This document shows, piece by piece, positions 8,759-63,894 of a DNA stretch of 64,000 bases (its first letter is position 1; each line of letters opens with the position of its first letter). The position numbers were made by a program, and so were the translations under genes. This DNA is from Eledone cirrhosa (taxonomy: Eukaryota): the NCBI GenBank assembly GCA_964016885.1, contig OZ024741.1:234670001-234734000 (forward strand), in the 5' to 3' direction. Below the pieces are notes generated by a model. The model saw nothing but the letters and a program-made list of their open reading frames with translations, was not told the DNA's origin and did not search any database.

Positions 8759-8828
8759 ATATATACTTATAGTACATGAATACATCGCATATATATATGC
8801 GATGTATTCATGTACTATAAGTATATAT
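8759..8828. repeat. Perfect 70-bp palindrome
   Basis: atatatacttatagtacatgaatacatcgc-atatatatat-gcgatgtattcatgtactataagtatatat. Confidence 0.9.
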
Positions 8829-8967
8829 ATATGAACAATGAGTTATTTAATTTGTTGATTATTCAACAAATTTAATTTATAACAGGTTAGAAGCACTCAA
8901 TTGTTTTCTTCTGGAGCATAATATCAATAATATTAATAAATGGAAGCTATCTTTATAAAACCTTATT

Positions 8968-9028
8968 TATTTTATTTTATATATTTCAAGGGTACCAACA
9001 TTTTGGTACGCCCTCATCAGATAAAATA
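8968..9028 (-). ncRNA. Inverted hammerhead copy with U16.1 changed to A
   Basis: Reverse complement reads tattttat CTGATGA gggcgtaccaaaatgttggtaccctt GAAA tatataaa ataaaata. Confidence 0.6.
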
Positions 9029-9133
9029 CAAAAGTTGGTTTACAGATAGTGACATATTCAAGAACTTATTCAAATAGAACTCACAACATTAAGTTCTTGT
9101 CTGAATATGTCACTATCTGTAAACCAACTTTTG

Positions 9134-9194
9134 TATTTTATCTGATGAGTGCGTACCAAAATTTTGGTACCCTTGAAATATATATAATAAAATA
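9134..9194 (+). ncRNA. Type I hammerhead ribozyme motif
   Basis: tattttat-CTGATGA-stem II (gtaccaaa/tttggtac)-GAAA-T-atat-ATA|ataaaata; 8-bp helix I; predicted cleavage after 9186. Confidence 0.75.
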
Positions 9195-10964
9195 AATATG
9201 GTTTTATAAAGATAACTGCCATTTATTAATATTATTGATATATATATATATATATGTATATAAATATATATATATATATATATAGTATAAATATTGTCTG
9301 TCTGTATGTCAGCCATGAACATGAGTTGTCTCCCCTATAAGTGGGTGTTATGTCTATCTACTCAATACGTTCCTCTACAAAAACAAATACCTATATTCAC
9401 TTGACTTTATTAATATTCATATATATATATATATATAAGATATATACACGCAACTTTCTATATATTTCACCTCGGCTGTCGTCATCTATTTTCTGATCAA
9501 CTCACCCCCAATCGTTGCATCTTTCAACCTTTAGTTCCCCATCCATACTACACCGTTTTTATATATATATATATACACACATTATAGACGTTTGTGAGTA
9601 CTAACAAAGCGAGAAAGAGTACTCAATACCGGTTATATTGTTTATTTATTCGGAAGAAGCTGATATTTCACTCCGTCACTACTCAGAGTTCCTCGTTTTG
9701 TGCGATTACTACTCTTCTCTACAACGACTTGGCTCATATCATCTCTTCTCTCAAGCTTCCTCGATATTTTTACGAAATAATTACTGAAGAACATTCGTCC
9801 CTGATAGGTAAGAAGTATTATAAACAGCCTTTTACATACTTAATCTTACCTGTTTATCGTTTCCTGCTAACATTTGTTTCTTCTTATTGATTATGGCCAT
9901 GGCTGGAACGTCTTTGATAAGTCTTCTAAATCAGGACAGACCAAGTGTTAGGCATCAACAAGAAACAAATATAACATTTGTCTGTTATTGGTGTTGCTTA
10001 ACCCCAAGCTAGCCACGATTTACAAGATTTGTGATGAAAGGTGCTCCACTATTTGTTAGTCCACATTTTGAACATTTAGGACTATATTATATAACGTGTC
10101 TTTCAATTTGCGTGATTTAGGAAATTTGGTTACTACTTCGAGCAAAGGAATCAGCACGCAATCACTCGACTTGCTATAGAGATAGAAATAGTAGCTAAAT
10201 TTTCCTAAAAACCATGTGTTACTGTCTTAATTAAGGAATGGGCACATTGAGCAATGTTGAATTTATGAATGTAGTAAACAAAAAAAAAAAAAAAAAGAGG
10301 AATGGTCACGATTGGAGTGCCTTTCATCATATGCCTAATGGATCGTGTTTGACCTTGTTTTTTTTCTATGGTATTTAGTATAACGTGTGTTGTTGGGTTT
10401 GTGCACAGTTGTTGCCCTTGTGGCAAATATAGGCAATGTTTTGTATTCATGCGTAACCTTCCCTAAACCGATAAAGATTTCTGACACGAATTTTAACTAG
10501 ACGTCAAATAAAGTTACCAGGGGAAAATGTCACATTCCATGTAAGTGACATAACTAATAGTTACAGTAATTAAACAAATAATATTTTAAGTCATTTATTA
10601 AATGACAATGAAATATATACAGTGACAACAGTGATATGACACTACTTTTATTCAATAATGTAAATAAAACAACGAGTAAAAAAAAATTAAAAATAACATT
10701 AAATCAGTAATTTATAGAGATTTTCCCTTCTAGATTCCATGAGGGCCATAGTCGAAATGGATGGCTGAATGGTTAAAAAGTTCGCTTCGTAGTCATTAAG
10801 TCCCTGGTTCGATCTCACTATGTGGCATTTGGGCAAGTGTCATTAACGATAGCTTTGGGCCAACCACGTTTTGTGAGTGAAATTGGGTAGGCGGAACTGT
10901 TTGGAAACTCGTTGGATGAACTGTATATGTTATTCAAAAAGCCATTTGTGTCACACTGAATCTA

Positions 10965-14174: not shown

Positions 14175-15790
14175 AATAATAATTGTTTCTACTTTTGGCA
14201 CAAGGCCAGTAATTACTCTGCATTACTGGTATTTTATTTTATTGACCCCATAAGGATGAAAGGCAAAGTTAACCTCAACGGGATTTGAACTCAGAATGGC
14301 AAGGGCCGTAACTCTATGCGCCAAAGCATGGCGTCCGAACCTCTGCCAATCCACCGCCCTCATAATAATAATTTCTGATTTAGGTACAAGGCTAACAATT
14401 TGGGGACAGAGAAAAGTCGATTAAATCGACCCCATTGCATTACTGGTACTTTATTTTATCAACCCTGTACGGATGAAAAGTAAAGCTAACCTTGGTGGGA
14501 TTTGAACTCAGAACGTAATGAGCTGGAATAAATAGTTAAGCATTAATCTGTTGCTCTAGTGACACTGCCAGCAATTTTGTGGAGTGAGGTAAATAAATAG
14601 TTAAGCATTAATCCGTTGCTCTAGTGACACTGCCAGCAATTTTGTGGAGTGAGGTAAATAAATAGTTAAGCATTAATCCGTTGCTCTAGTGACACTGCCA
14701 GCAATTTTGTGGAGTGAGGTAAATAAATAGTTAAGCATTAATCTGTTGCTCTAGTGACACTGCCAGCAATTTTGTGGAGTGAGGTAAATAAATAGTTAAG
14801 CATTAATCTGTTGCTCTAGTGACACTGCCAGCAATTTTGTGGAGTGAGGTAAATAAATAGTTAAGCATTAATCTGTTGCTCTAGTGACACTGCCAGCAAT
14901 TTTGTGGAGTGAGGTAAATAAATAGTTAAGCATTAATCCGTTGCTCTAGTGACACTGCCAGCAATTTTGTGGAGTGAGGTAAATAAATAGTTAAGCATTA
15001 ATCCGTTGCTCTAGTGACACTGCCAGCAATTTTGTGGAGTGAGGTAAATAAATAGTTAAGCATTAATCCGTTGCTCTAGTGACACTGCCAGCAATTTTGT
15101 GGAGTGAGGTAAATAAATAGTTAAGCATTAATCCGTTGCTCTAGTGACACTGCCAGCAATTTTGTGGAGTGAGGTAAATAAATAGTTAAGCATTAATCCG
15201 TTGCTCTAGTGACACTGCCAGCAATTTTGTGGAGTGAGGTAAATAAATAGTTAAGCATTAATCCGTTGCTCTAGTGACACTGCCAGCAATTTTGTGGAGT
15301 GAGGTAAATAAATAGTTAAGCATTAATCCGTTGCTCTAGTGACACTGCCAGCAATTTTGTGGAGTGAGGTAAATAAATAGTTAAGCATTAATCCGTTGCT
15401 CTAGTGACACTGCCAGCAATTTTGTGGAGTGAGGTAAAAGTCTCTTAAATCGATCCCAGTATTTGACTGGTACTTTATTTTGTCAACCCTAAAAGGATGA
15501 ATGGCAAAGTTAACCTCAGTGAGGTTTGAACTTAGAATGTAAAGGGCCACAACTAAATGCTGCAAACCACTTTGTCTGACATCCTAATGATTCTGCCAAT
15601 AATAATAATAATTGTTTCTACTTTTGGCACAAGGCTAGCAATTATCCCAGTGCATTACTGGTACTTTATTTTATCGATGAAAGGCAAAGTTAACATCGGC
15701 AGGATTTGAACTCAGACCATAAAGGGCTGTAATTCTATGCTGGAAAGCATGGCGTCCGACCCTCTACTGATACTGCCAATCCACCGCCCA
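14175..15790 (-). mobile_element. Cluster of about four tRNA-derived SINE copies enclosing the minisatellite
   Basis: Repeated ggatgaaaggcaaagttaacct..gatttgaactcaga (reverse B-box gagttcaaatcc) with (aat)n tails. Confidence 0.8.
14526..15435. repeat. Minisatellite, 65-bp unit x14
   Basis: Unit aaataaatagttaagcattaatc(c/t)gttgctctagtgacactgccagcaattttgtggagtgaggt; one C/T variant site. Confidence 0.95.
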
Positions 15791-16068: not shown

Positions 16069-16458
16069 AATGTAATAATATTTGCATACTTTTGATATAT
16101 TTGATTTCTTCTGTTTCAGATATGGAAAAATGTCTTTCTCGGTGGTTGTACTAACATGGAAGCTAAGAGAATTGTAGAAAAAAACACTAACAAGACACCA
16201 GCCCTTAAATAATCTCCTTAAAATAGCAAACCTGAAAGACAACACATTACAAAGAACTCGGGAATATATACTAATTTAACTGATTCACTGGATAGTTAGT
16301 AATTTTACTAGTTGTAAAAAGACCTGGGGTAGGAAAGAGTGGAACCCTTACCTCCACCATAGTTTCTCGGGCAGGAGAGAACAGAAACCTAACCTCCACA
16401 ACATAGTTTTTGGTCCTGTTTTTACACTGACACTGTTTACTAACTTTCTCATATTGCC

Positions 16459-17154
16459 ATGGCTGATGTATTAGTGAAGATGTGTCATTGTCAAATATGT
16501 GGTTCATCTCTGTCAACTTTGAGTCTATTAAGAAGGCATAAGTTGATCCATGAGGGTCAGCGACCCTACCACTGTACTGTCTGCTCTGCTTCGTTCTTAC
16601 AGAGCAGTGATCTGAAGAAACACAACATGATTCACACGGGAGAGAAACCGTTCACCTGCTACACATGTGGGGCAGCGTTTTCACGAAACAGTTCTCTCAA
16701 ACAGCACGGTCTCACTCACACAGGCCAGAAACCATTCAAATGCGAGGAGTGCCCCTCTGCATTCTCAACACGTAGTTTACTCAAACGTCATCACATGAAC
16801 CACACGGGCTTGAAGCCTTTCAAATGTGACCTTTGTTCCGCAGCATTCACTCAAAATTGCGACCTCAAGAAGCATCGAATGATCCACACCGGTGAGAAAC
16901 CGTACAAATGTGATTACTGTTCAGCTGCTTTCTCTAGGAATTCTTCATTGAAGCAGCACCACCGGACACACACTGGGGAGAAACCATTCCAGTGTGAAAT
17001 GTGTCCAGCTGCTTTCTCCACATTTAGCCTCTTAAAGAGGCATCAGATGAGCCACAACAATGAGAAACCCTTTAAATGTGAAATGTGCCCTGCACAATAT
17101 TCACAAAGCAGTGACTTAAAAAAGCATCAACGTGTCCACACAAGGAATAACTGA
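16459..17154 (+). CDS. C2H2 zinc-finger protein, 8 tandem fingers, 231 aa
   Basis: Intact ATG-to-TGA ORF with eight CxxC..HxxxH motifs and TGEKPF-type linkers; splice acceptor ttctgtttcag| at 16119 upstream; AATAAA at 17551. Confidence 0.93.
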   Translation: MADVLVKMCHCQICGSSLSTLSLLRRHKLIHEGQRPYHCTVCSASFLQSSDLKKHNMIHTGEKPFTCYTCGAAFSRNSSLKQHGLTHTGQKPFKCEECPSAFSTRSLLKRHHMNHTGLKPFKCDLCSAAFTQNCDLKKHRMIHTGEKPYKCDYCSAAFSRNSSLKQHHRTHTGEKPFQCEMCPAAFSTFSLLKRHQMSHNNEKPFKCEMCPAQYSQSSDLKKHQRVHTRNN

Positions 17155-18366
17155 AAGGGTTACCCCAATATTTTGTTGTTCTTCAAATTCAATGGAAGGA
17201 AAGGATACATTTACTGGACAGATTCTCATTAATGACTAACAAAAATCAGTTTGATTCTATTGAGTAGTGTAAGAGCCAAGGTTATCTTTCTAAAGTCTTT
17301 ATTGATGTTGTGGCTCTCATCTGCTGGATATATGGAATCAAACGATGTCATTTTACATACAGTTTACTCTATGGGATTATATTTAAAGTTGAGAGAGTAA
17401 GAGTGTGTGTATTATTGTATGTATTTCAAATCTGTGATGTGAAAGTACATTGCTAAAAAACAAAACAAAACAAAAACAAATAATGTTATCTCCAGTCCTT
17501 AGATTAAGGAAGAGTAGGAGTCACTATAAGAATCAAGTGTGATTAAGGGAAATAAAATTACATTTCCTTTTTGTTTTATTCATTTATTGTCTTTTGTTAA
17601 TTCAAGTGAATTTTTTTAAAGGACTTTAAGCTCAGCTGTGAATAACTTTAGGCCTCATGAATTGCTAATGCCTTAAAAATTTTAAATGCTACCTCTACTG
17701 AGTACTGATCTGGGATGGTGGAGCTTGTTACATGCACAAATACAAATATCTTAGATCATATCAACAAAAAGATTAATAAACAACCATTTACCAGATTCAT
17801 TTACCAACAAGCTACCCTCATTGTTTCATGAGTTAACAAAGGAGTTTCTACATGGTCACTTTACCTGTCTACGTAAAGGAAGGTGTAGGCATACTGAAAC
17901 ATGTATAAAGTCCCTCTCTCCTGGTAGTATGCCTTCTATACTAGCAGAATAGTGAATAGCACAAATACTATACATGCCAAGAAAGCAATATTAAACTCAT
18001 CTAAATATAACCAGCACACAACTAAAACCATCAAGAGGACCCTGAAGGTCACTGCAAATACTAGGTTTCACTACCACTGAGGATCTCTCCTTGTGAAGGC
18101 ATACCTTCAAATTTGCAAAAATTGACCTTCCTCTTTAAAACCAGAAAATACTTTAGTTCCTCTCAATAATTTGATAGTGCGGAAGCCTGTGATATGACAT
18201 CAGAATAAGCACAAGATGTAACAAGAAAGGCAGGAAAATATAGGAGGAAGAGAGTATGGAAGCTAAAGGGCCTTTCTATTAAAAAAGATAACTGCAATTA
18301 GTGGCAAAATACTGCACTGACAACTACCCTTTCAGCTGGTCAATATGATTGATTAAATCTCTTTAA

Positions 18367-22650: not shown

Positions 22651-23997
22651 TTAGTGCATTAGGGTCTGAATGCTGTGTACTGCCTCTTGGTTCTCACACT
22701 TCCTCTGTCCAATGCTGTAGGACGGTACGCTGAGGGTGTTGCCCCAGTTTGTAGTCCATGTGGACGTCATAGGGGGAACGTTTCTCTTCCAATTAAAGTT
22801 GTTCAAAGCCGACATCTGATGAGAGCAGGCTGTAGCCATAGGCGGGGAGTTGAGAGTGAGTGGTGGCAACTGGGGCAGATGTGGCAAGTGTGAGGGCATT
22901 CTTTGGTGAGAGCATGCAGTTGGTGTTGGTATCATAGATGAAGACGGCACTGAGGTTGGTGCAGAGGCAACCAGAGTGGTGACAGCATGGTTCCCTGCAT
23001 GACACTGGCCATGTTTGTCTGCGTTACATCGTTGAGGTGGTATGGTGGTAGTCATGGTGTAATCTTTATTGTCACATTTGTTCATTTTGTTCTCCTCTGT
23101 ACCCATGGCACTGGCTATGTGTGTGCGCTGGTGCAACTTCAGCTTGTCGTTGCGAGAGAATGCACGGCGGCATATTTCGCAACTGTAAGGCTTCTGTCCT
23201 GAATGCGTAAACTCATGCAGCTTTAGTTTGTCCTTGCGGGAGAAGGACTTTGAGCAAAGCGAACAACTAAATGGTTTTTCCCCACTGTGTGTGAATTCAT
23301 GAATTTTCATCTTGTCCTTACGAGAGAAAGCTTTCTGACAAATCCCACAGCTAAACGGTTTCTCACCTGTATGTGATCTCTCATGGATTTTCAGCTTGTC
23401 ATTGCGTGAAAAACACCGTTGACAAACAGGGCACTCAAATGGTTTCTCACCCGTGTGCGACCGTTGATGCAGCTTTAACTTGTCGTTGCGTGAGAACGCG
23501 CGACGACAAATTAAGCATTCAAAAGGCCGCTCTCCTGTGTGGGAACGGGTGTGTATTTTAAGTTTATCATTTCTAGAGAAGGCTTTGTGGCATATAGTAC
23601 ACTGAAATGGTTTACTCCCAGTGTGGGTCAATTGATGGATCTTAAGCTTATCTTTCTGAGCAAAAGCCATATCGCAAAGCTCACAAGGGAAGGGTCTTTC
23701 ACCAGTGTGCGTACGCTCATGGTTACGTAATTTGTCACGCTCAGGGAAAGCTTTGCCGCAGAACATACATGTAAAATGCTTGCCGGCCTCAGGAGCCATT
23801 TCATGTTTCTTCAGGTAGGCCCTTAATGCAAACCGCTTACGACAGATATTGCATTTATATGGCTTCTTCTCAATATACCTCTGTTTATAACTGAGGTAGG
23901 AAGGAGTAATGCCTACCTGGGAATAAGCTAAACTGCAGGCATGGTAGTTTACATGGTTTGTAATGGGGGGGTATTGTACAGCTGGGTTAGAACACAT
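22651..23997 (-). CDS. C2H2 zinc-finger protein, 9 fingers (first lacks its second His), Pro/Ser/Thr-rich C-terminus, 448 aa
   Basis: Intact ORF with HTGE(K/R)PF linkers and a repeated SRNDKLK helix; minus-strand acceptor cttcacag| at 24373. Confidence 0.93.
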   Translation of the reverse strand: MCSNPAVQYPPITNHVNYHACSLAYSQVGITPSYLSYKQRYIEKKPYKCNICRKRFALRAYLKKHEMAPEAGKHFTCMFCGKAFPERDKLRNHERTHTGERPFPCELCDMAFAQKDKLKIHQLTHTGSKPFQCTICHKAFSRNDKLKIHTRSHTGERPFECLICRRAFSRNDKLKLHQRSHTGEKPFECPVCQRCFSRNDKLKIHERSHTGEKPFSCGICQKAFSRKDKMKIHEFTHSGEKPFSCSLCSKSFSRKDKLKLHEFTHSGQKPYSCEICRRAFSRNDKLKLHQRTHIASAMGTEENKMNKCDNKDYTMTTTIPPQRCNADKHGQCHAGNHAVTTLVASAPTSVPSSSMIPTPTACSHQRMPSHLPHLPQLPPLTLNSPPMATACSHQMSALNNFNWKRNVPPMTSTWTTNWGNTLSVPSYSIGQRKCENQEAVHSIQTLMH

Positions 23998-26099
23998 CTT
24001 GGCAGATAGAAGAAACGACAGAACTTTGCTTCTTTCTCAATAACAAAATTAAATACCCTATTAATAATTACAGAACTATTTATAATTAAAACAATCTTTC
24101 TTTTCTTATTTTTTTTTTCAATTCTGGGTTCTCTTAAAATATTCTGACCCTCTTATTCAATATAATTGTTAATTATATATATATATATATACATATATTC
24201 CTTGTTATCAAAAGTGGGAAGATTCTAGCAAATAAAGTATTGGAAACTCTTGAGAATATCTTTGGGAATTAGTTCACTCCAAGACGAATTCAGAACTATT
24301 TTGGCAATGACTTCTATCGTCTTGAATCAATACAAACAGAAGATTCTTCAGTAAGTGGAATCAATGTTGTTCCTGTGAAGACAATAACTAAGAAATATGT
24401 TAAGAGACAGAGTTTTTCTTTGGTAATTAATTTGTCAATAAAGAAAGAAGACAAATTGCTATTTTTAAAAATATAATAATAGCAATAATAACGACTTCTT
24501 TAATACACACAAGTCATTAATAATAATAATAATACTAACAATGTCTTACTGAGGTTTGGGTAAGACCTGGATAAGTAGAATGAAGTGTTGAAGGACACTA
24601 AATATTAACCCTGCACTACATTAATGATAATAATAATGATTTGGTTGGGTGTTTTTCAGTAGGAACACCGCCAAAATTTAGTATGGAGGGGACAGAAATG
24701 AGTGAATCGATTCCAGTATATATTACTGGTACTCAATTTCTCGCCTTTGAGGAGGGATGAATGAAAGGCAATGTTGTTACCTCCCCCACTATGTGGACAG
24801 GTGAAAATTGAACTCGTTATAGGTGAGACACTAAGCTAGATACAATGAAAGCATCTATGTTAGCTTTCTAACAACTGCACCACCCACGTAATAGTAGTAG
24901 TAGCAGTAGTGGTGGTAGTAGTAATCAACAAAAATACAAATGAGCTACAACTATGAAAAAAAATTCAAATGCGAAAGAAACCCCAACAAACTAGGTATGG
25001 AGAGAGAAACAGAAGCCTTAACTTGACAAGACAAACTGAAAATAATTGCTGACTAAAATATGAACTTTTCCTTCCCCAGGGGTAATTTGAGAGGATGGAT
25101 AGGGAGAGAGATCAGATTAGGTGCATTTAGTGTGGTGTTTGTTGTTGCTGTTATTCCTGTTAACATCCCCCACAGCAAAAAGCGCAGTAAAATAGATATT
25201 AATGGAGTCTGTGTATATATACATACATATATATATATAGATACATAGATATATAAATGTATGTGTGTATATGTGCACAGCTAGCTCTGTGAGTATATAC
25301 ACACAAACTCCTAATTTGCAGTTTGCTGTTATATCCCCCAAGTGTTACTAGGTTCAACAATGAAAGTTCATGTTGGGTTGTTAAACAGTTTTATTGACAG
25401 CCTCACCTTGAGACAGCAGAAAACAACATAGATCTGTGGAGGGCATGTTAACTAATAAAACATAACTTTGTTAAAAGTGTGTTAACTAGGTCCCTACTTT
25501 AGTTTCAAACATTTGTCAGGCTTTCTAACAATATTGCTACTGTTCTCATACAATATTGTTAGCTCTCCATAACAGGAATGCCAAACAGATAGAGACTAGT
25601 TGGTTCTTTAACACAGCAGTTATTATTATTATTATTATTGTTGTTACTATTAATAACAAGAATAATGATTTCTAACATAGGCCCAAGGACTACAAATTTT
25701 TGGGGCAGGAGGAAATGAGAGGGGAGGGAAGAGGTGGTATAATTGAACCCTAGTATTTGACTGGTATTTCTTTTTTTTTAACAACCCTGGCACAATTGAT
25801 TTGTCATCATGTGTTCTCACGCAATAACAAGTTAAATAATAATGATAATGATAACAATAACATTGATGAACTGACCTATAATATTAGTTAATAATAATAA
25901 TAATAATAATAATGAAAGTAATGCCTAGTGTGATATATAAATGCTATTATTGTTTGTATCACTGTGAGAAAGCCATGTTTGTACAGGCATTTGCAGCATA
26001 TCTGGTGATGGTATTATTGTGATTAAAATTATGCTTAACAGAAACTGATGTCATTATTACCATTGTAACTACTGTTTTAGTGGAGGTTAATATTGTTAT

Positions 26100-32250: not shown

Positions 32251-32632
32251 CCAGGGAGTGTAACGTGGAGTTACTGTAGGTTCACCCGGGTGAGCACTCG
32301 ATGTTTAGGTTCACTTCTGTGTCGAGGTGTAGAGCTAAACAGAGTGTAGTATAATAAAATAAAACAGGGACGAGTGGTTACTCCTTCATTATGTTTATTG
32401 GTTGGTGACATGCGTTTCGCCACCGATCAGCTCAAGGTTCGATCTGTATTGATCTAGCCCGACTCTGTAATGGCTGGTCAAGCTTTCATTATCACTAAGG
32501 GCTCTGACGCGCTATGGATTACAGAGTCGTGCTAGATCGATACAGATCGAACCTTGAGCTGATCGGTGGCGAAACGTGCGTCACCAACCAATAAACGTAA
32601 TGGAGGAGTAACCACTCGTCCTCGTTTTATTT

Positions 32633-32639
<7 letters not shown>
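32251..32639. mobile_element. Inverted-repeat element with degenerate hammerhead and a one-sided ~100-bp tail
   Basis: Arms 32350-32471 and 32518-32639; ctgacgc...gaaacgtgcgtc followed by AATAAA; homologous to 35036-35470 in opposite orientation. Confidence 0.65.
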
Positions 32640-32682
<43 letters not shown>

Positions 32683-32742
32683 CGTAAGATAAGAAAATTA
32701 TAAAATTATAAAAAAATTATAAAATTGACTTACTAAAATATC

Positions 32743-32823
32743 ACTTCCAACTAATTAGTTTCTGGAATGGAGTAAATATATTTTCCGAAGAACATATAGA
32801 AAAGCATTCCGTCGTCAGGAAAT
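32743..32823 (-). ncRNA. Inverted copy of the extended-stem-II hammerhead
   Basis: Same core on the minus strand; stem II capped by c-ttcg-g; helix I about 4 bp. Confidence 0.68.
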
Positions 32824-33091
32824 CTTATCTCCAACTCATTTGTCGAGCAATATTGGCCATGACTGCTGCTATAGTAGTAAGCAGGCCGCTGTCTTATTAA
32901 CAACTCGCTTTCCACTGATTGACCTCGATGTCACGTGATTGATTCTTTTTGAATTTGCCACGGACGTAGAGACAGTGATTTTCTCAATGGCTAGGATTTC
33001 AGTCCACGCTTCGCTATTTCCTCTCCACTGAATTATTTTTTAAATAAGTTTCCAGAGTCCTCGCTATGCCTGGAAACTTACATGAAAAGAG

Positions 33092-33173
33092 ACTTTCCTG
33101 ACGACGGAATGCTTTTCTATATGTTCTTCAGAAAATATATTTACTCCATTCCAGAAACTAATTAGTTGGAAGT
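33092..33173 (+). ncRNA. Type I hammerhead ribozyme motif with extended stem II
   Basis: actttc-CTGACGA-c-GGAATG...CATTCC-a-GAAAC-taatta-GTT|ggaagt; palindromic stem-loop III aactaattagtt. Confidence 0.75.
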
Positions 33174-33356
33174 GATATTTTAGTAAGTAAGTCAATTTTA
33201 TAATTTTTTTATAATTTTATAATTTTCTTATCTTACGTCTCATATTATTGTTTTGCAACCCCATGCATTGAACCACAATGTTACTAAGACAAAACCTATA
33301 TATTTGCTAGCATTGATATGCATCTGTATGTATATAAATGTTACTAGATATAAATT

Positions 33357-47830: not shown

Positions 47831-49386
47831 AGCAGCGATTCTTTGCTTAAACTTTAATCTGTTATTTTAATAAATCATCATCATCATCATCATCGTTTAA
47901 CGTCCATCTTCCACGCTTGCATGGGTTTGGACGGGAGTTTTCCCACTTGAGGCAAGAGTGGTTGTCTTGCTCGTATAGGACTGTCTGGGGGGTTTTCTAC
48001 GGCTGGATGCCCTTCCTAACACCAACCACGTTTACAGTGTGGACTGGGAGGTTTTTACCGTGTTACCTACACGGCCACATTACAGCGTGGACTGTTTTTT
48101 TGTCGTGACACCTATACAACCTCATTTGTTTCGGATTGGATGTTGTGGTACCAACATAACTTCACATTTAAGGGGGTGGTGTGGATGGGGTGGGGGTAGT
48201 GGGACGGGGGGGGGGTATTTTTGTTAGAGGTGCCTACTGACTGTAGTAGGTTTCATATATATATATATATATATATATCAATCATACGTCATACACCTTT
48301 CATGTTATTTTTCTGCCAATAACACATTAATCGACCAAACATTCAGAAACATAAATCAGGAAACCGAACCAAAGGTGATAATTTAAAATGAAATTTAAAA
48401 AATAGCATTAAATAAAAATTATAGATAAAAATTATTAATGAAATTTGATAATTATTTTTTTTAATTCTTGAAATTAAATAATATAAAATAAAACAGAATT
48501 CTCCATATTTGTCTAAAGACTGATGTTTTTCCTCAAAATGCTAGCAGTTTCATTAATGGCTTATATTATGTTTTTTTTAATCATTTCACTTCAGTTTTGA
48601 ATATATTTTATGTAAAACAAAAAAGGATTTGTAAAACTAAATGCAGTTCTTCATCTCTCTCTCTTAGTTTATCTGTCTATCTGTATACACACACATATAT
48701 TATATACAAAGAGAAAGAGAGAACACACACACAACCTTTCTGACTTATGTCCAACACATTATATCCTGGATATAATTAGCTTATCCACCACATAGATAGA
48801 GAGAACTGGTAGTAATTTTACAATATCATTTCTTATTTACAACTTAAGAGAATGATTATAAAAAAACAAAACAATATGTGTCTATGCAGAAGTTGTTCAA
48901 GACATTAGATTTGAGTTTCAATTTCTTTATTAGAACCTTGTAAGGGCATCCAGCCATAGAAAACTTGCAAGACCCTCCAGTCATGTCAAGAGCATGGCAA
49001 CCTCCCTAGTGTTGGGGATTTGCATGAGGTTGGTGATAGGAATGTAATCAGCTGTAGAAATCTTGCCAAACAAAGGGTTGGAAGGACCTTCAGTTGTGTC
49101 AAAGGCATGACAACCTCTCCTGAGTACTTGATGGAATGTGAGAGCGTACACAAACGCACAGATCCCTGACCTGTTTGGGGGATCAGTGGCTCCGATTCAG
49201 TACTATATGGACCCATCCAACCCTTGCTAGCAGAGAAAGTGGACGTTAAAACGACAATGATGATGATGATGATGATGTATTTTCTTAACATCCTCTTATT
49301 TTTGTTGTGAAACCTTCATTGGTCATACAAGTACAACATGTATTTACATCAGAAAGCAATTACAGCATACTACACCTCACAAATCC

Positions 49387-52300
49387 CACTACACCACACA
49401 ATAAATCATACTATACCACAACAAATATCACACTACACCACACAACAAATCATACTATACCACAACAAATATCACACTACACCACACAACAAATCATACT
49501 ATACCACAACAAATATCACACTACACCACACAACAAATCATACTATACCACAACAAATATCATACTACACCACACAACAAATCATACTATACCACAACAA
49601 ATATCATACTACACCACACAACAAATCATACTATACCACAACAAATATCATACTACACCACACAACAAATCATACTATACCACAACAAATATCATACTAC
49701 ACCACACAACAAATCATACTATACCACAACAAATATCATACTACACCACACAACAAATCATACTATACCACAACAAATATCATACTACACCACACAACAA
49801 ATCATACTATACCACAACAAATATCATACTACACCACACAACAAATCATACTATACCACAACAAATATCACACTACACCACACAACAAATCATACTATAC
49901 CACAACAAATATCACACTACACCACACAACAAATCATACTATACCACAACAAATATCATACTACACCACACAACAAATCATACTATACCACAACAAATAT
50001 CACACTACACCACACAACAAATCATACTATACCACAACAAATATCACACTACACCACACAACAAATCATACTATACCACAACAAATATCATACTACACCA
50101 CACAACAAATCATACTATACCACAACAAATATCACACTACACCACACAACAAATCATACTATACCACAACAAATATCATACTACACCACACAACAAATCA
50201 TACTATACCACAACAAATATCATACTACACCACACAACAAATCATACTATACCACAACAAATATCACACTACACCACACAACAAATCATACTATACCACA
50301 ACAAATATCATACTACACCACACAACAAATCATACTATACCACAACAAATATCATACTACACCACACAACAAATCATACTATACCACAACAAATATCATA
50401 CTACACCACACAACAAATCATACTATACCACAACAAATATCACACTACACCACACAACAAATCATACTATACCACAACAAATATCATACTATACCACACA
50501 ACAAATCATACTATACCACAACAAATATCATACTACACCACACAACAAATCATACTATACCACAACAAATATCATACTACACCACACAACAAATCATACT
50601 ATACCACAACAAATATCATACTACACCACACAACAAATCATACTATACCACAACAAATATCATACTACACCACACAACAAATCATACTATACCACAACAA
50701 ATATCATACTACACCACACAACAAATCATACTATACCACAACAAATATCATACTACACCACACAACAAATCATACTATACCACACAACAAATCATACTAT
50801 ACCACAACAAATATCACACTACACCACACAACAAATCATACTATACCACAACAAATATCATACTACACCACACAACAAATCATACTATACCACAACAAAT
50901 ATCATACTACACCACACAACAAATCATACTATACCACAACAAATATCATACTACACCACACAACAAATCATACTATACCACAACAAATATCATACTACAC
51001 CACACAACAAATCATACTATACCACAACAAATATCATACTACACCACACAACAAATCATACTATACCACAACAAATATCATACTACACCACACAACAAAT
51101 CATACTATACCACAACAAATATCATACTACACCACACAACAAATCATACTATACCACAACAAATATCATACTACACCACACAACAAATCATACTATACCA
51201 CAACAAATATCATACTACACCACACAACAAATCATACTATACCACAACAAATATCATACTACACCACACAACAAATCATACTATACCACAACAAATATCA
51301 TACTACACCACACAACAAATCATACTATACCACAACAAATATCATACTACACCACACAACAAATCATACTATACCACAACAAATATCATACTATACCACA
51401 ACAAATATCACACTACACCACACAACAAATCATACTATACCACAACAAATATCACACTACACCACACAACAAATCATACTATACCACAACAAATATCATA
51501 CTACACCACACAACAAATCATACTATACCACAACAAATATCATACTACACCACACAACAAATCATACTATACCACAACAAATATCATACTACACCACACA
51601 ACAAATCATACTATACCACAACAAATATCATACTACACCACACAACAAATCATACTATACCACAACAAATATCACACTACACCACACAACAAATCATACT
51701 ATACCACAACAAATATCACACTACACCACACAACAAATCATACTATACCACAACAAATATCATACTACACCACACAACAAATCATACTAAACCACAACAA
51801 ATATCATACTACACCACACAACAAATCATACTATACCACAACAAATATCATACTACACCACACAACAAATCATACTATACCACAACAAATATCATACTAC
51901 ACCACACAACAAATCATACTATACCACAACAAATATCATACTACACCACACAACAAATCATACTATACCACAACAAATATCATACTACACCACACAACAA
52001 ATCATACTATACCACAACAAATATCATACTACACCACACAACAAATCATACTATACCACAACAAATATCATACTACACCACACAACAAATCATACTATAC
52101 CACAACAAATATCATACTACACCACACAACAAATCATACTATACCACAACAAATATCACACTACACCACACAACAAATCATACTATACCACAACAAATAT
52201 CACACTACACCACACAACAAATCATACTATACCACAACAAATATCATACTACACCACACAACAAATCATACTATACCACAACAAATATCATACTACACCA

Positions 52301-55260
52301 CACAACAAATCATACTATACCACAACAAATATCATACTACACCACACAACAAATCATACTATACCACAACAAATATCATACTACACCACACAACAAATCA
52401 TACTATACCACAACAAATATCATACTACACCACACAACAAATCATACTATACCACAACAAATATCATACTACACCACACAACAAATCATACTATACCACA
52501 ACAAATATCATACTACACCACACAACAAATCATACTATACCACAACAAATATCATACTACACCACACAACAAATCATACTATACCACAACAAATATCATA
52601 CTACACCACACAACAAATCATACTATACCACAACAAATATCATACTACACCACACAACAAATCATACTATACCACAACAAATATCATACTACACCACACA
52701 ACAAATCATACTATACCACAACAAATATCATACTATACCACAACAAATATCACACTACACCACACAACAAATCATACTATACCACAACAAATATCACACT
52801 ACACCACACAACAAATCATACTATACCACAACAAATATCATACTACACCACACAACAAATCATACTATACCACAACAAATATCATACTACACCACACAAC
52901 AAATCATACTATACCACAACAAATATCATACTACACCACACAACAAATCATACTATACCACAACAAATATCATACTACACCACACAACAAATCATACTAT
53001 ACCACAACAAATATCACACTACACCACACAACAAATCATACTATACCACAACAAATATCACACTACACCACACAACAAATCATACTATACCACAACAAAT
53101 ATCATACTACACCACACAACAAATCATACTAAACCACAACAAATATCATACTACACCACACAACAAATCATACTATACCACAACAAATATCATACTACAC
53201 CACACAACAAATCATACTATACCACAACAAATATCATACTACACCACACAACAAATCATACTATACCACAACAAATATCATACTACACCACACAACAAAT
53301 CATACTATACCACAACAAATATCATACTACACCACACAACAAATCATACTATACCACAACAAATATCATACTACACCACACAACAAATCATACTATACCA
53401 CAACAAATATCATACTACACCACACAACAAATCATACTATACCACAACAAATATCATACTACACCACACAACAAATCATACTATACCACAACAAATATCA
53501 CACTACACCACACAACAAATCATACTATACCACAACAAATATCACACTACACCACACAACAAATCATACTATACCACAACAAATATCATACTACACCACA
53601 CAACAAATCATACTATACCACAACAAATATCATACTACACCACACAACAAATCATACTATACCACAACAAATATCATACTACACCACACAACAAATCATA
53701 CTATACCACAACAAATATCATACTACACCACACAACAAATCATACTATACCACAACAAATATCACACTACACCACACAACAAATCATACTATACCACAAC
53801 AAATATCATACTACACCACACAACAAATCATACTATACCACAACAAATATCATACTACACCACACAACAAATCATACTATACCACAACAAATATCATACT
53901 ACACCACACAACAAATCATACTATACCACAACAAATATCATACTACACCACACAACAAATCATACTATACCACAACAAATATCATACTACACCACACAAC
54001 AAATCATACTATACCACAACAAATATCACACTACACCACACAACAAATTATACTATACCACAACAAATATCACACTACACCACACAACAAATCATACTAT
54101 ACCACAACAAATATCATACTACACCACACAACAAATCATACTATACCACAACAAATATCACACTACACCACACAACAAATCATACTATACCACAACAAAT
54201 ATCATACTACACCACACAACAAATCATACTATACCACAACAAATATCATACTACACCACACAACAAATCATACTATACCACAACAAATATCACACTACAC
54301 CACACAACAAATCATACTATACCATAACAAATATCATACTATACCACACAACAAATCATACTATACCACAACAAATATCATACTACACCACACAACAAAT
54401 CATACTATACCACAACAAATATCACACTACACCACACAACAAATCATACTATACCACAACAAATATCATACTATACCACACAACAAATCATACTATACCA
54501 CAACAAATATCACACTACACCACACAACAAATCATACTATACCACAACAAATATCATACTATACCACACAACAAATCATACTATACCACAACAAATATCA
54601 TACTACACCACACAACAAATCATACTATACCACAACAAATATCACACTACACCACACAACAAATCATACTATACCACAACAAATATCATACTATACCACA
54701 CAACAAATCATACTATACCACAACAAATATCACACTACACCACACAACAAATCATACTATACCACAACAAATATCATACTATACCACACAACAAATCATA
54801 CTATACCACAACAAATATCACACTACACCACACAACAAATCATACTATACCACAACAAATATCATACTATACCACACAACAAATCATACTATACCACAAC
54901 AAATATCACACTACACCACACAACAAATCATACTATACCACAACAAATATCATACTATACCACACAACAAATCATACTATACCACAACAAATATCATACT
55001 ACACCACACAACAAATCATACTATACCACAACAAATATCATACTACACCACACAACAAATCATACTATACCACAACAAATATCATACTACACCACACAAC
55101 AAATCATACTATACCACAACAAATATCATACTACACCACACAACAAATCATACTATACCACAACAAATATCACACTACACCACACAACAAATCATACTAT
55201 ACCACAACAAATATCATACTACACCACACAACAAATCATACTATACCACAACAAATACCA
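49387..55260. repeat. Satellite, 44-bp unit (two related 22-mers), about 133 copies, no G on +
   Basis: cacacaacaaatcatactatac + cacaacaaatatca(t/c)actacac; ORF translations cycle every 44 aa = 3 units. Confidence 0.96.
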
Positions 55261-55264
55261 TACT

Positions 55265-55519
55265 TGTAGCCGGAGGCATTCGGACTTACCTTGCGTCTTT
55301 CTATCACTCGTTCCACCGCCCACGTGGGGTACTTTCAACAGCGTCTATCTTCACACGACACGTCTCCTCACGCTGCCAACAGCCAAGTGACTGCTGCCCG
55401 CTGCTTGGTCCCTCGTGTCGCCCCGGTCCTCCTGCTTCCGGTCAGGCGTCCCCCAACTTCTGGCAATCCCCCTCCCACAGCAGCTCTACACACCCCCTCT
55501 ATCTCATGGCAGCCCCACA
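55265..55519. mobile_element. Probable solo LTR, 255 bp
   Basis: TGT...ACA termini, 5-bp target duplication ATACT (55260-55264 and 55520-55524), GC-rich within the satellite. Confidence 0.75.
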
Positions 55520-55832
55520 ATACTACACCACACAACAAATATCACACTACACCACACAACAAATATCACACTACACCAAACAACAAATATCACACTACAT
55601 CACCACACTACACTACAACAAATATCATACTATACCACACAACAAACATCACACTACATCACACAACAAATATCACACTACACCACAACAAATATCACAC
55701 TACACCACAACAAATATCACACTATACCACACAACAAATATCACACTACATTACACAACAAATATCACACTTCACCACACAACAAATATCACTACACGCT
55801 ACAAAATATATTGCACTATACCATACACCATG
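55520..55832. repeat. Degenerate continuation of the satellite (22-mer monomers)
   Basis: Irregular copies of cacacaacaaatatcacactac. Confidence 0.85.
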
Positions 55833-60466: not shown

Positions 60467-62187
60467 TCACAGTTGCCACAAATAAGTACTCATAGGAGGA
60501 AATTCTTCAACTGCTTTGTTGATGGAATTTGAAGAAGTCTTTGGAGGTTTACTGGCAGTCTTGTTGTGGGTCTTCTTGTGGCGATGTAGAGTGTCGCTCC
60601 TAGCAAAATGTTTAGGGCACAAGTCACAGTGGAAAGCCTTCTCACCTGTATGGGTTCTCTTGTGCAGTCGTAGGTAGTGTCTCTGAGCAAATGCCTTCAA
60701 ACAGACTTCACACTGAAAGGGTTTCTCACCTGTGTGTGTTCTGCGATGCATCTGCAAAGAATTCCTCTGTGCAAACTGCTTGAAGCAGAAGTCACACTGA
60801 AACGGTTTCTCCCCAGTGTGGGTTCTTTTATGCAATTGCAAGTAATGTTTGTGGGCAAAGTTCTTGAGGCAGACTTCACACTGGAATGGTTTCTCTCCTG
60901 TGTGTGTTCTCTTGTGTATCTGTAATGTGTTTCTCTGTGCAAACTGTTTGAAACAAGTCTCACATTGGAACGGTTTCTCTCCGGTGTGAGACCTCTCATG
61001 AATTTGCAGATAATGTCTCTGTGCAAACAGTTTCATACAAACATCACATTGGTAACGTCGCTTTGGTCCATGTGTTCTTTGATGTACTCTTAGTTTGCTA
61101 CTTTGGGAAAATTGCTTGAAACAAACTTCACATTTAAATGGTTTTTCCCCTGTGTGAGTTCTCCGATGAATTTGAAGGGTTGTTTTGCGAGCAAACTTCT
61201 GGATACAGAAGTCACATTGGAATGGTTTCTCGCCAGTATGTGTTCTCTTGTGAATAGCCAGATAGTATTTTTGAGTAAACTGTTTAAGACAGACATCACA
61301 CTGGAACAGTTTTTCGCCTGTGTGGATTCTTTTGTGGATCTCCAAGTGGTATTTCTGTACAAATTGTTTCAAACAAACATCACACTGATTAGGTTGTTCT
61401 CCCGTGTGAGTTCTACGATGTATTCGCAGGTAGTAGCGCTGTGCAAAATGTCTCAGGCAAATATCACATTGGTAACGTTTCTTACTAATATGTTGCTTCT
61501 GATGGATTTGGAGTTTAATCCTTTGGGAGAATTTCTCAAGACAAATGGTGCATTGATATGGTGTTTCACCAGTATGTGTTCTACGGTGGATCTTCAGTGT
61601 ATCTTTGCGGGCAAATTTCTGAATACAGAAATCACATTGGAATGGTTTCTCACCAGTATGAGACCGTTTATGAATAGCCAAATAATAGCGCTGAGCAAAT
61701 TGTTTTTGACATATGTCACAGTAATAGGACTTCTTCATTGTGACATTGTGTAGTTCTTCAAACCTGGGAATATCTGGTGGCATTCCTTGATAATTGCTTC
61801 CCATTGTTTTTGAAATTTGATACTGAGGTTGTGAGATGGATTGTGGTTGTGAAGGATATTTTTGTGTATTAGTCGGTGCCCTTTGGTAACTTGGAGAAAT
61901 ATTCTGGTGTTGGAATTTTCCATGGTTCTGAATTTCACTTCTTTGAACATTCATTGGTATCGGTTGGTAATTGTTTTCATTGGTTTTCATTGGCTGATCA
62001 ACTTTGTCTGTGTGGTTCTTTTTGTGTCGCTGCATGACATCCTTACGAGAGAACTGTTTGTTACAAATGTCACATGGGAACGGCTTCTCTCCTGTGTGTT
62101 TCCTTCGGTGCATGTGCATCAAATATTCCTGAGCAAACTTCTTGCCGCAGTAATCGCAGAACAGTTGCTTGAGAGGTTGAGGATGTG

Positions 62188-62251
<64 letters not shown>

Positions 62252-63229
62252 TTGGTGTTGTTGATGTTGATGTTTTATAGAACTCTGCGGCAGTTTGTTC
62301 GGGCCATATTGTTTTTGAGACACATCACCATGGAATGATTTATCAACACTAGATGTGGAGCTCTTCTGTGATGAACTCTCCTTAGATGACTGTCCACTCT
62401 CCAAGTTTGACTGCATTCTCTCAGTAGTTGGTAAGTAACATGGCTGAGAATATTGACTGCTGTACATATTGTTACCAGGGAACACTGTCTGACCAATGTA
62501 GGGTAGTCTCTGGCTATCTATAGTTGAATCATGTGAGAACTGGGTCCCAGGCAGGTCACTGTTGCTACTGTTGTCTGGTTTGTCAACTGGTGATGCTATT
62601 CTCTCTTTCTCCAAGTTATGTCTATGAGAAGAGATCTGTTTACTAGAGATGCTGTTGTGGATGTTTTTCTCCGGAACATGTGACATCCTTGGAACTTCTT
62701 GGCAGCTACTTTGGAGGAACTGTTTCCCAGAAATTGATGAGGAGTGGGTTGTTTTCTCATGTGAGATTCTTTGGCTGGACTGCATGTTATGTTCATGGGA
62801 ATAATGTTTGCCAGAGCTGCTGCTGTTTTGACTGGACTTTTCAATACCATGTAGCATTCTTTGTGAATCAAGCGCGTGTTCATGTGGGAACTGCTTGCCT
62901 GAGCTGCTTGAATGGTGCATAGATTTTTCTGCTGCATGTGACATTCTCTGGGAACTATGGGAGTGTGATGACGATGAGGAAGAATGTCGGTGGTGGAGGT
63001 GTTTGCCAGAAATATTACTGTGGTTTCCCTTGTCCTGCATCGGAAGCATCCTCTGAGTGTCGAGGCCATGGTCACTGCTGTGAGGAAAATGCTTACCTGC
63101 AGAGGAAATTGTGTTATGTATGGACTTCTCGGCAATGTGAGTCATCCTTGGAGCATGTAGGGTGTGTGCCGGGTGGAATGGCATCCCATACATGTCATAA
63201 TGGAATGGTACACTAGCAGACCGTTCCAT
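60467..63229 (-). CDS. C2H2 zinc-finger protein, 2+14 fingers, Ser/His-rich N-terminus and 22-Q tract, about 920 aa
   Basis: The track ORF starts at TTG 63238; the first ATG is at 63229 (MERSASVPF); canonical linkers; minus-strand acceptor atttcag| at 63345. Confidence 0.93.
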
Positions 63230-63894
63230 TTTGGCCAACTGGGTTGGCTAGCTTGATAGCTGGCCTACACTAAACTATAGTAGTAGTAGTAATAGTTACC
63301 AACTTAATACAATGTTGTTCTGGAGTTTAACCACAATCTCGCACCTGAAATATATAAAAAAAAATAAACATATATAAATGAGTTATATATGTATTTTTTC
63401 TCAAACTATAGATGTTATGAAATGATTTATTATGATATAAATATAATTAGACTGTGGCCAAACTGGAGTACCAACTTAAAATCCATATCAACCCCAGTAT
63501 TTATTTTTACAATATCTTTTTGTCACAGGATATAACACGCACTTGTTTGTGTGTGCATGTGCAGCAAAGGTAATTGGTTGGAAGATCAAGTTAGTAAAGT
63601 TATGCCAAGAATTTTCAGGTTTGATGTGGTTCGACAATCAGCAAATAGAACAAACCTATTCATCAAAGATGTAATCCATATGTAGTCAACAATTAAATCA
63701 TTGAGTAAACAATTCTAGGTTAAATCATGAGTGTAAGTACACTGAGCATTTAAATAATAAATCTAGGAATTCTGAAAGAATTTAAAGACATTTTTATTCG
63801 CACGTGTTTCAACAAACGAGATGTGAAGAAATATAGTAAATTGAAGAATTTGATTAAGCAACATTATAGTATATGAGTTATATAGTATATTGCC

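What the first reader, a model, noticed from the sequence alone, without database searches (positions are those of the whole stretch)
8921..9241. 320-bp hairpin with one intact and one inactivated hammerhead, upstream of a zinc-finger gene
Seen: the + arm has a complete motif (8-bp helix I tattttat/ataaaata, CTGATGA, stem II, GAAA-T-atat-AUA). The - arm differs at the invariant U16.1. The sequence is unrelated to the 33-kb element, so this is a separate family with the same layout. It ends in (TA)n about 400 bp before a candidate first exon. Inference: it could cut read-through + transcripts, or fold into long dsRNA that masks the ribozyme and is an ADAR/Dicer substrate.
Basis: partly seen in the sequence, partly recalled or inferred. 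Interest (0 to 1): 0.75.

Follow-up and report, generated by a model that had tools for sequence, protein, structure and literature searches.

The report
Mirror-image Penelope retrotransposon stump with hammerheads
This hairpin is two cut-short ends of a common Penelope-type jumping gene joined back to back just upstream of a zinc-finger gene, a known insertion shape; its self-cutting RNA motifs are predicted to be masked here, and the broken one is likely a chance mutation.

Summary
The hairpin and both hammerhead motifs are real: 140-bp arms, 96% complementary, and the minus arm has U16.1 changed to A. The element is larger than reported (about 8834-9241). It is two 5'-truncated 3' ends of a high-copy Penelope-like retrotransposon joined head-to-head in (TA)n, with an 87-nt tail on one arm. 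Longer copies lead upstream to a reverse transcriptase/GIY-YIG frame with Hydra-clade motifs. This layout is published. The intact/inactivated contrast is not a design: the mutation occurs in 1 of 79 arms, and 12 of 15 head-to-head pairs keep both cores. Across subfamilies the hammerhead covaries, including an 8-nt helix III palindrome, so it likely cuts only as a dimer; here the long duplex is predicted to mask it. The zinc-finger first exon is supported by a spliced contig (9341-9807 joined to 16120). No locus-specific RNA across the hairpin was seen, so cleavage, editing and small RNAs remain untested. The scan has reported such Penelope foldbacks before on other DNA. Ordinary.

The parts
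8834..9068 (-). Left arm: 5'-truncated 3' end (pseudo-LTR) of the Penelope-like element plus its ~87-nt tail; 4-nt deletion near 9060
   Evidence: Aligns at 91-92% to the 3' ends of long copies L032 and L002
8834..8920 (-). One-sided tail, homologous to the sequence between the upstream pseudo-LTR and the ATG in tandem copy L084
   Evidence: Pairwise alignment; one tailed and one untailed arm in 11 of 19 junctions
8849..8872 (-). Small perfect 10-bp hairpin inside the tail, next to its end
   Evidence: Fold; function not tested
8968..9028 (-). Type I hammerhead with U16.1 changed to A at 8977
   Evidence: A in 1 of 79 arms
9067..9068 (.). Head-to-head junction, 2-nt overlap (TA) between the two truncated copies
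9067..9241 (+). Right arm: 5'-truncated 3' end of the element without tail
   Evidence: 95-97% to L032 and L002; 96.6% to L081, which carries RT-thumb-endonuclease sequence upstream
9134..9194 (+). Type I hammerhead, core intact; helix III palindrome ATATATAT 9178-9185; predicted cut after A9186
9238..9294 (.). (TA)n target tract
   Evidence: 39 of 79 arms end directly in TA repeats, 28 in the tail, 12 otherwise
8759..8828 (.). Perfect palindrome (35-nt arms) abutting the tail end; not a family feature
   Evidence: 1 of 51 element ends against 8 of 380 control TA tracts
9341..9807 (+). First (likely non-coding) exon of the C2H2 zinc-finger gene, as far as the contig reaches; GT donor at 9808
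   Evidence: One 1897-nt contig of run X1 matches 9341-9807 and 16118-17549 without mismatch
16120..17549 (+). Second exon with the C2H2 zinc-finger frame (16459-17151)

Best explanation
The hairpin is two 5'-truncated 3' ends of a high-copy Hydra-clade Penelope-like retrotransposon joined head-to-head in a (TA)n tract, likely made in one insertion event, and its hammerheads are passengers that are predicted to be masked here. Shown: family membership, arm layout, tail on one arm, 2-nt junction overlap, covariation of the hammerhead across subfamilies, and the private nature of the U16.1 change. Inferred: the GIY-YIG endonuclease nicked the TA tract, reverse transcription began once at the tail end and once at the short end, both copies stopped early and were joined. 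Inferred: in the parent element the hammerhead is a dimer-type motif (helix III formed between two copies through the palindrome) that cuts tandem precursor RNA. Inferred for this locus: each strand has only one sense motif, the antisense arm is transcribed first, so a read-through RNA forms a 140-bp duplex and does not cleave; such an RNA would be an editing or small-RNA substrate only if it is made, which was not seen. The minus-arm change is neutral decay after insertion.
For: High copy: 480 exact matches to a 33-letter pattern against 0 for the control; 1797 first-look candidates. Long copies run from the same arm through a ~1.2-kb 3' untranslated region into a GIY-YIG frame; L081 has a 96.6% arm and frames 56-61% identical to the 741-aa L084 protein. 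RWR, DKT, YRDD, NFLDV, CxCx5C, CxxC-EE and CxH motifs are present and match the Hydra definition. 5' truncation points scatter over reference positions 151-1338; 11 of 19 junctions pair a tailed with an untailed arm. Covariation on 16 hammerheads: 9 of 10 stem II pairs and 2 of 4 palindrome pairs change on both sides (ATATATAT, ATACGTAT, ATGCGCAT); score 0.331 against 0.195 shuffled. U16.1 is A in 1 of 79 arms; 12 of 15 head-to-head pairs keep both cores; in 21 arms picked by their 3' untranslated region the core is no better kept than the flanks (11/230 against 18/840 and 16/521). Masking. Same layout in print: Penelope-13_HM with an inverted 5' copy and a hammerhead on both strands; opposite-strand motifs 100-700 bp apart; inverted pseudo-LTR with one-sided tail.
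Against: No Pfam family hit the element's proteins (0 of 5) and no solved structure matched, so the clade call rests on motifs and a by-eye comparison with published Hydra sequences, not on a tree. No fully intact frame was found in this exact subfamily among the 12 long loci read. The 16 aligned hammerheads were chosen by a pattern that fixes the core and are related, so core invariance there is no evidence. Six of the 15 pairs were picked by a pattern holding part of the core, and L015/L023 may be duplicates. No target-site duplication can be read in TA. Cleavage and masking are folding predictions only. The insertion lies within about 100 bp of the 5'-most RNA cover of a gene, so an effect on that gene is not excluded.
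Confidence: 0.9

Rival explanations
1. The insertion began as above but has been co-opted by the zinc-finger gene: the plus arm supplies a promoter or 5' sequence, or cuts read-through RNA, and the minus hammerhead was lost under selection.
For: The element ends 100 bp upstream of the 5'-most spliced contig position; pseudo-LTR promoters are proposed in the literature (passages); an RNA that starts at the junction (9073) escapes the long duplex and forms stem II with P 0.99.
Against: Each arm differs from the family majority at only 3-4 sites, so the insertion is young; one damaged core in a pair is expected from decay (3 of 15 pairs); even unmasked, the A15.1-U16.1 pair forms with P 0.003 or less; no mismatch-free RNA contig covers the arms.
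Confidence: 0.07
2. It is a self-standing non-autonomous foldback element (MITE- or retrozyme-like) that moves as a 320-bp unit.
For: Many pairs have a similar overall size, with cores 63-180 bp apart in 14 of 15 head-to-head pairs.
Against: Junctions differ from copy to copy; most arms are solo or attached to long 3' untranslated regions and coding sequence; no tandem direct repeats at this locus.
Confidence: 0.02
3. It is a microRNA or hairpin-RNA gene and the hammerhead is incidental.
For: Very stable hairpin; weak Rfam microRNA matches such as MIR6224, 58.5 bits.
Against: All Rfam matches lie below their gathering scores (171 for MIR6224); retroelement origin and covarying hammerhead.
Confidence: 0.01

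Closest known systems
Hydra-clade Penelope-like elements (Craig et al. 2021, PMC8557442), e.g. Hydra-1_Obim of Octopus bimaculoides and Penelope-13_HM
   Same: C-terminal GIY-YIG, DKT, RWK-like, CxCx5C linker, CxxC and CxH, (TA)n targets, sense hammerhead near the 3' end, inverted 5'-truncated copy with a hammerhead on each strand (Penelope-13_HM).
   Different: A different family: unit about 3.7-3.9 kb (L084, L085) with a ~1.2-kb 3' untranslated region against under 3 kb; the hammerhead differs from the published Hydra-1_Obim one (longer stem II with a conserved C-C mismatch, A-U or G-U closing pair, 8-bp AU-rich helix I); tail ~87 nt against 30-40.
Minimal and palindromic-helix-III hammerheads of Penelope-like elements (Cervera and De la Pena 2014, PMC4209133)
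   Same: Type I, long stem II, palindromic helix III that needs a second copy; opposite-strand pairs 100-700 bp apart already reported.
   Different: No G10.1-C11.1 pair (G-U in 86 and A-U in 13 of 101 arms) and no clear extra base between positions 9 and 10.1.
Inverted pseudo-LTR insertions with one-sided tail (Adineta vaga Penelope, PMC3846280; tail as reverse-transcription start site in PAc, PMC11167929)
   Same: Head-to-head arrangement, tail on one arm, short overlap at the junction.
   Different: Here both arms are truncated inside the pseudo-LTR region, so no coding sequence remains.
Non-LTR retrozymes of animals (bioRxiv 10.64898/2026.07.22.740005)
   Same: Short, non-coding, hammerhead-bearing, related to Penelope pseudo-LTRs.
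   Different: Retrozymes are direct tandem monomers; this is an inverted pair with variable truncation, continuous with the coding element.

Membership tests
Hydra-clade Penelope-like element | Single frame with reverse transcriptase and C-terminal GIY-YIG endonuclease | tested here: met
   L084 (741 aa from ATG), L087, L092 carry RT motifs then VYxC..YVG; broken frames of the same kind lie upstream of the 96.6% arm in L081. Not present in the window copy itself, which is truncated.
Hydra-clade Penelope-like element | DKG changed to DKT; RWK motif near the N terminus | tested here: met
   VKSDKT in 3 of 3 long frames; RRLRWRA / RRLRWCA (RWR/RWC variants) in the 2 that reach the N terminus
Hydra-clade Penelope-like element | CxCx5C linker; CxxC and CxH around conserved E and N | tested here: met
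   CxCx5C in 4 of 4; CSLCVEE and CKH in L084, the one of the four whose frame reaches the end
Hydra-clade Penelope-like element | (TA)n insertion and sense-strand hammerhead near the 3' end | tested here: met
Hydra-clade Penelope-like element | Placement in the Hydra clade on an RT tree; absence of IFD and CCHH by alignment | not tested
   Published Hydra sequences were seen in a supplement and compared by eye only
Complex insertion of endonuclease-bearing Penelope-like elements | 5' truncation, adjacent inverted copy, tail at one end | tested here: met
Type I hammerhead ribozyme | C3-A9, G12-A15.1, U16.1, H17 core with three helices | tested here: met
   Plus arm met, minus arm fails at U16.1; stems covary across subfamilies; Rfam gave no hammerhead match at E up to 1
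Type I hammerhead ribozyme | Self-cleavage after H17 | not testable with these tools
   Monomer fold is not favoured (-2.2 against -9.6 kcal/mol); dimer model -17 against -30
Non-LTR retrozyme | Direct tandem monomers of fixed length | tested here: not met
   Inverted pair, variable truncation
MITE | Uniform length and fixed terminal inverted repeats among copies | tested here: not met
   Unequal ends and scattered junctions in 19 junctions
microRNA precursor | Rfam match at gathering score; defined small-RNA product | tested here: not met
   Best 58.5 bits against 171; small RNA not testable

The most novel reading that the evidence does not exclude
A young Penelope stump has landed at the promoter of a zinc-finger gene and now shapes its 5' end: transcripts start inside the plus arm, escape the long duplex, and are cut after 9186 in trans by pairing their helix III palindrome with RNA from other family copies, so that retroelement activity tunes a host transcription factor.
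Probability: 0.05. Interest if true: 0.6.

Novelty: new member of a known kind. Interest (0 to 1): 0.15.

Why it matters
Little by itself: it is one of hundreds to thousands of stumps of a known class of retrotransposon. The family is a clean test set for two open points: whether Penelope hammerheads cut as dimers (the palindrome covaries between subfamilies) and how head-to-head insertions with a one-sided tail arise. This copy is also a natural test of whether such foldbacks affect a neighbouring promoter.

Tried and rejected
Alternative genetic code for the AT-rich sequence upstream of the hammerhead: stops in all frames and both strands; it is the 3' untranslated region. Neptune clade (my note): dropped once DKT and CxCx5C were seen. 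Pfam: 0 of 5 element proteins and 0 of 2 homologues hit; PDB: nothing meaningful. Rfam: no hammerhead family among 80 matches. Run search: no RNA holder listed; X1 is treated as RNA only because one contig is spliced where DNA contigs of X2 run through. An X1 contig ends exactly at 9186, but it has 3 mismatches, comes from another copy, and ends 31 letters from its variant at 9156, which likely reflects the assembly word length (recalled as 31): not evidence of cleavage. Lack of a locus-specific X1 contig over the arms proves nothing (repeats are skipped). A-to-I footprint in genomic copies: A>G 4.8 against T>C 5.5 per 1000, no excess. Flanking palindrome as a family by-product: 1 of 51 ends against 8 of 380 controls. 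Two-template origin of the arms: paired arms differ at 18 of 140 family-polymorphic cells against 19 of 1339 others, but both rates are about 40% of those for unlinked arms, so inconclusive (13 pairs among 86 arms after dropping duplicate loci and arms under 86% identity). Paper searches showed no description of this particular family; Repbase and Dfam could not be searched.

Full report
Observation. The inverted repeat is real: arms 8921-9060 and 9102-9241, 140 nt, six mismatches, folding energy -199 kcal/mol against -57 for shuffles. The plus arm holds a type I hammerhead: helix I 9134-9141/9187-9194, CTGATGA at 9142, stem II 9149-9174, GAAA, the palindrome ATATATAT 9178-9185 and A17 at 9186. 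It was the only hit of my motif scan in the window; the minus arm fails at U16.1 (8977). Rfam gave only sub-threshold microRNA-like matches. There is no real similarity to the 33-kb element.

What it belongs to. The genome is 3.0 Gb and looks octopus-like (my inference from size, repeats and zinc-finger arrays; no call names it). The arm is a high-copy repeat: 1797 first-look candidates and 480 exact matches to a 33-letter pattern against 0 for the control; among the first 100 listed I count 7 head-to-head pairs within 200 bp. Walking upstream in longer copies gave a ~1.2-kb AT-rich region and then a GIY-YIG frame on the same strand as the hammerhead. A protein search found related frames up to 743 aa. 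L081 joins an arm 96.6% identical to the window's to RT, thumb and endonuclease pieces 56-61% identical to the L084 protein; L086 joins a 90% arm to a near-complete frame. The proteins have RWR, DKT, YRDD, NFLDV, CxCx5C, CxxC-EE and CxH, the features that define the Hydra clade of Penelope-like elements (PMC8557442 section 11). By eye they align with Hydra-1_Obim, but that family has another hammerhead and is 2.5 kb, whereas the tandem units here are 3.7-3.9 kb (L084, L085). Pfam and PDB gave no support, and I built no tree.

Anatomy. Against long copies the window element is 8834-9068 (minus strand, with an 87-nt tail) joined to 9067-9241 (plus strand, no tail) with a 2-nt overlap, ending in TA repeats on both sides. 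The tail is homologous to the sequence between the upstream pseudo-LTR and the ATG of L084. Of 19 junctions in 18 loci, 11 pair a tailed with an untailed arm, 3 have two untailed arms, 1 has two tailed arms and 4 are unresolved; truncation points scatter. This is the published insertion shape: an inverted 5'-truncated copy and a one-sided tail, including a Hydra element with a hammerhead on each strand and opposite-strand hammerheads 100-700 bp apart. In the one element studied in vitro, both strands are cut and extended, copying starts at the tail, and hammerhead cleavage is not needed.

The hammerhead. On 16 motifs from several subfamilies, 9 of 10 stem II pairs and 2 of 4 palindrome pairs change on both sides; the covariation score is 0.331 against 0.195 shuffled and at most 0.216 when slid. 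The rows are related and were picked by a core pattern, so only the stems carry evidence. The palindrome reads ATATATAT, ATATGTAT, ATACGTAT or ATGCGCAT; its inner pairs cannot close a hairpin, which points to an intermolecular helix III, as described for Penelope hammerheads that are inactive singly and weak as dimers (PMC4209133). After insertion there is no sign of selection: among 21 arms picked by their 3' untranslated region, 11 have an intact core, and core substitutions (11/230) are no rarer than flank ones (18/840, 16/521). Among 79 arms at 88% identity or more (of 101 unique arms spanning the motif), U16.1 is A only in the window's minus arm; 12 of 15 head-to-head pairs keep both cores (six pairs were picked by a pattern holding part of the core). 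The plus arm has a U-U mismatch at the second pair of stem II, where most copies have A-U.

What it does here. In a read-through RNA of either strand the hammerhead helices have negligible probability; an RNA starting at the junction forms stem II but hardly the core. A two-copy model is also not the lowest-energy state. So cleavage at this locus is unlikely, though these are predictions.

The gene. One 1897-nt contig of run X1 matches 9341-9807 and 16118-17549 without mismatch, across a GT-AG intron, while DNA contigs of X2 run through both sites. The second exon encodes seven C2H2 fingers. X1 is not on record as RNA, comes from one study, and contigs cannot show a start. X1 pieces over the hairpin have 1-3 mismatches and come from other copies. 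Editing, small RNA and any effect on the gene are untested.

Papers seen: PMC8557442 (passages, section 11, supplement search hits and part 2 of 59); PMC4209133 (parts 1-2 of 4 of the text, no supplements); PMC11167929, PMC3846280 and bioRxiv 10.64898/2026.07.22.740005 (passages only; preprint supplements closed). Unread supplements and Repbase may already hold this family. Hammerhead numbering and the effect of U16.1 loss are recalled.

Verdict. A new member of a known kind; identity about 0.95, passive and masked at this locus about 0.9; interest 0.15.

Noticed in passing
window 32350-32639: Second head-to-head foldback ending in (TA)n, high copy (1582 first-look candidates, several opposite-strand pairs); CTGATC instead of CTGATGA in all 7 arms printed, so not a standard hammerhead. 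Earlier scan notes describe a rearranged hammerhead in Naiad-type repeats; whether this is one was not tested.
   Followed up: partly
window 32679-33241: Another inverted-repeat element (95-nt and 56-nt arm pairs), related to a stretch in L084:349-745.
   Followed up: no
window 8759-8828: Perfect 70-nt palindrome centred on a TA run and abutting the tail; possibly a local foldback; unique among 51 element ends.
   Followed up: partly
window 9150, 9160, 9163 and family arms: 10 of 13 head-to-head pairs differ at one or more family-polymorphic sites; the two common stem II loop variants (9160 C, 9163 G) are each other's reverse complement. Could mean two templates per insertion or hypermutable sites.
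   Followed up: partly
window 49366-55827: 6-kb satellite of 22/44-nt units with no G on the plus strand.
   Followed up: no
window 22654-24036 (-) and 60470-63247 (-): Two further C2H2 zinc-finger frames (7 and 16 motif hits), part of a cluster.
   Followed up: no
window 14527-15438: Near-perfect tandem array, 14 copies of 65 nt.
   Followed up: no
L081:7616 (+) and L081:558 (-): Hammerhead motifs of two further families near the long copy.
   Followed up: no
L085:213-2228, L092:2799-5859: Long copies with inverted pseudo-LTRs 2-3 kb apart beside or around the coding frame.
   Followed up: partly
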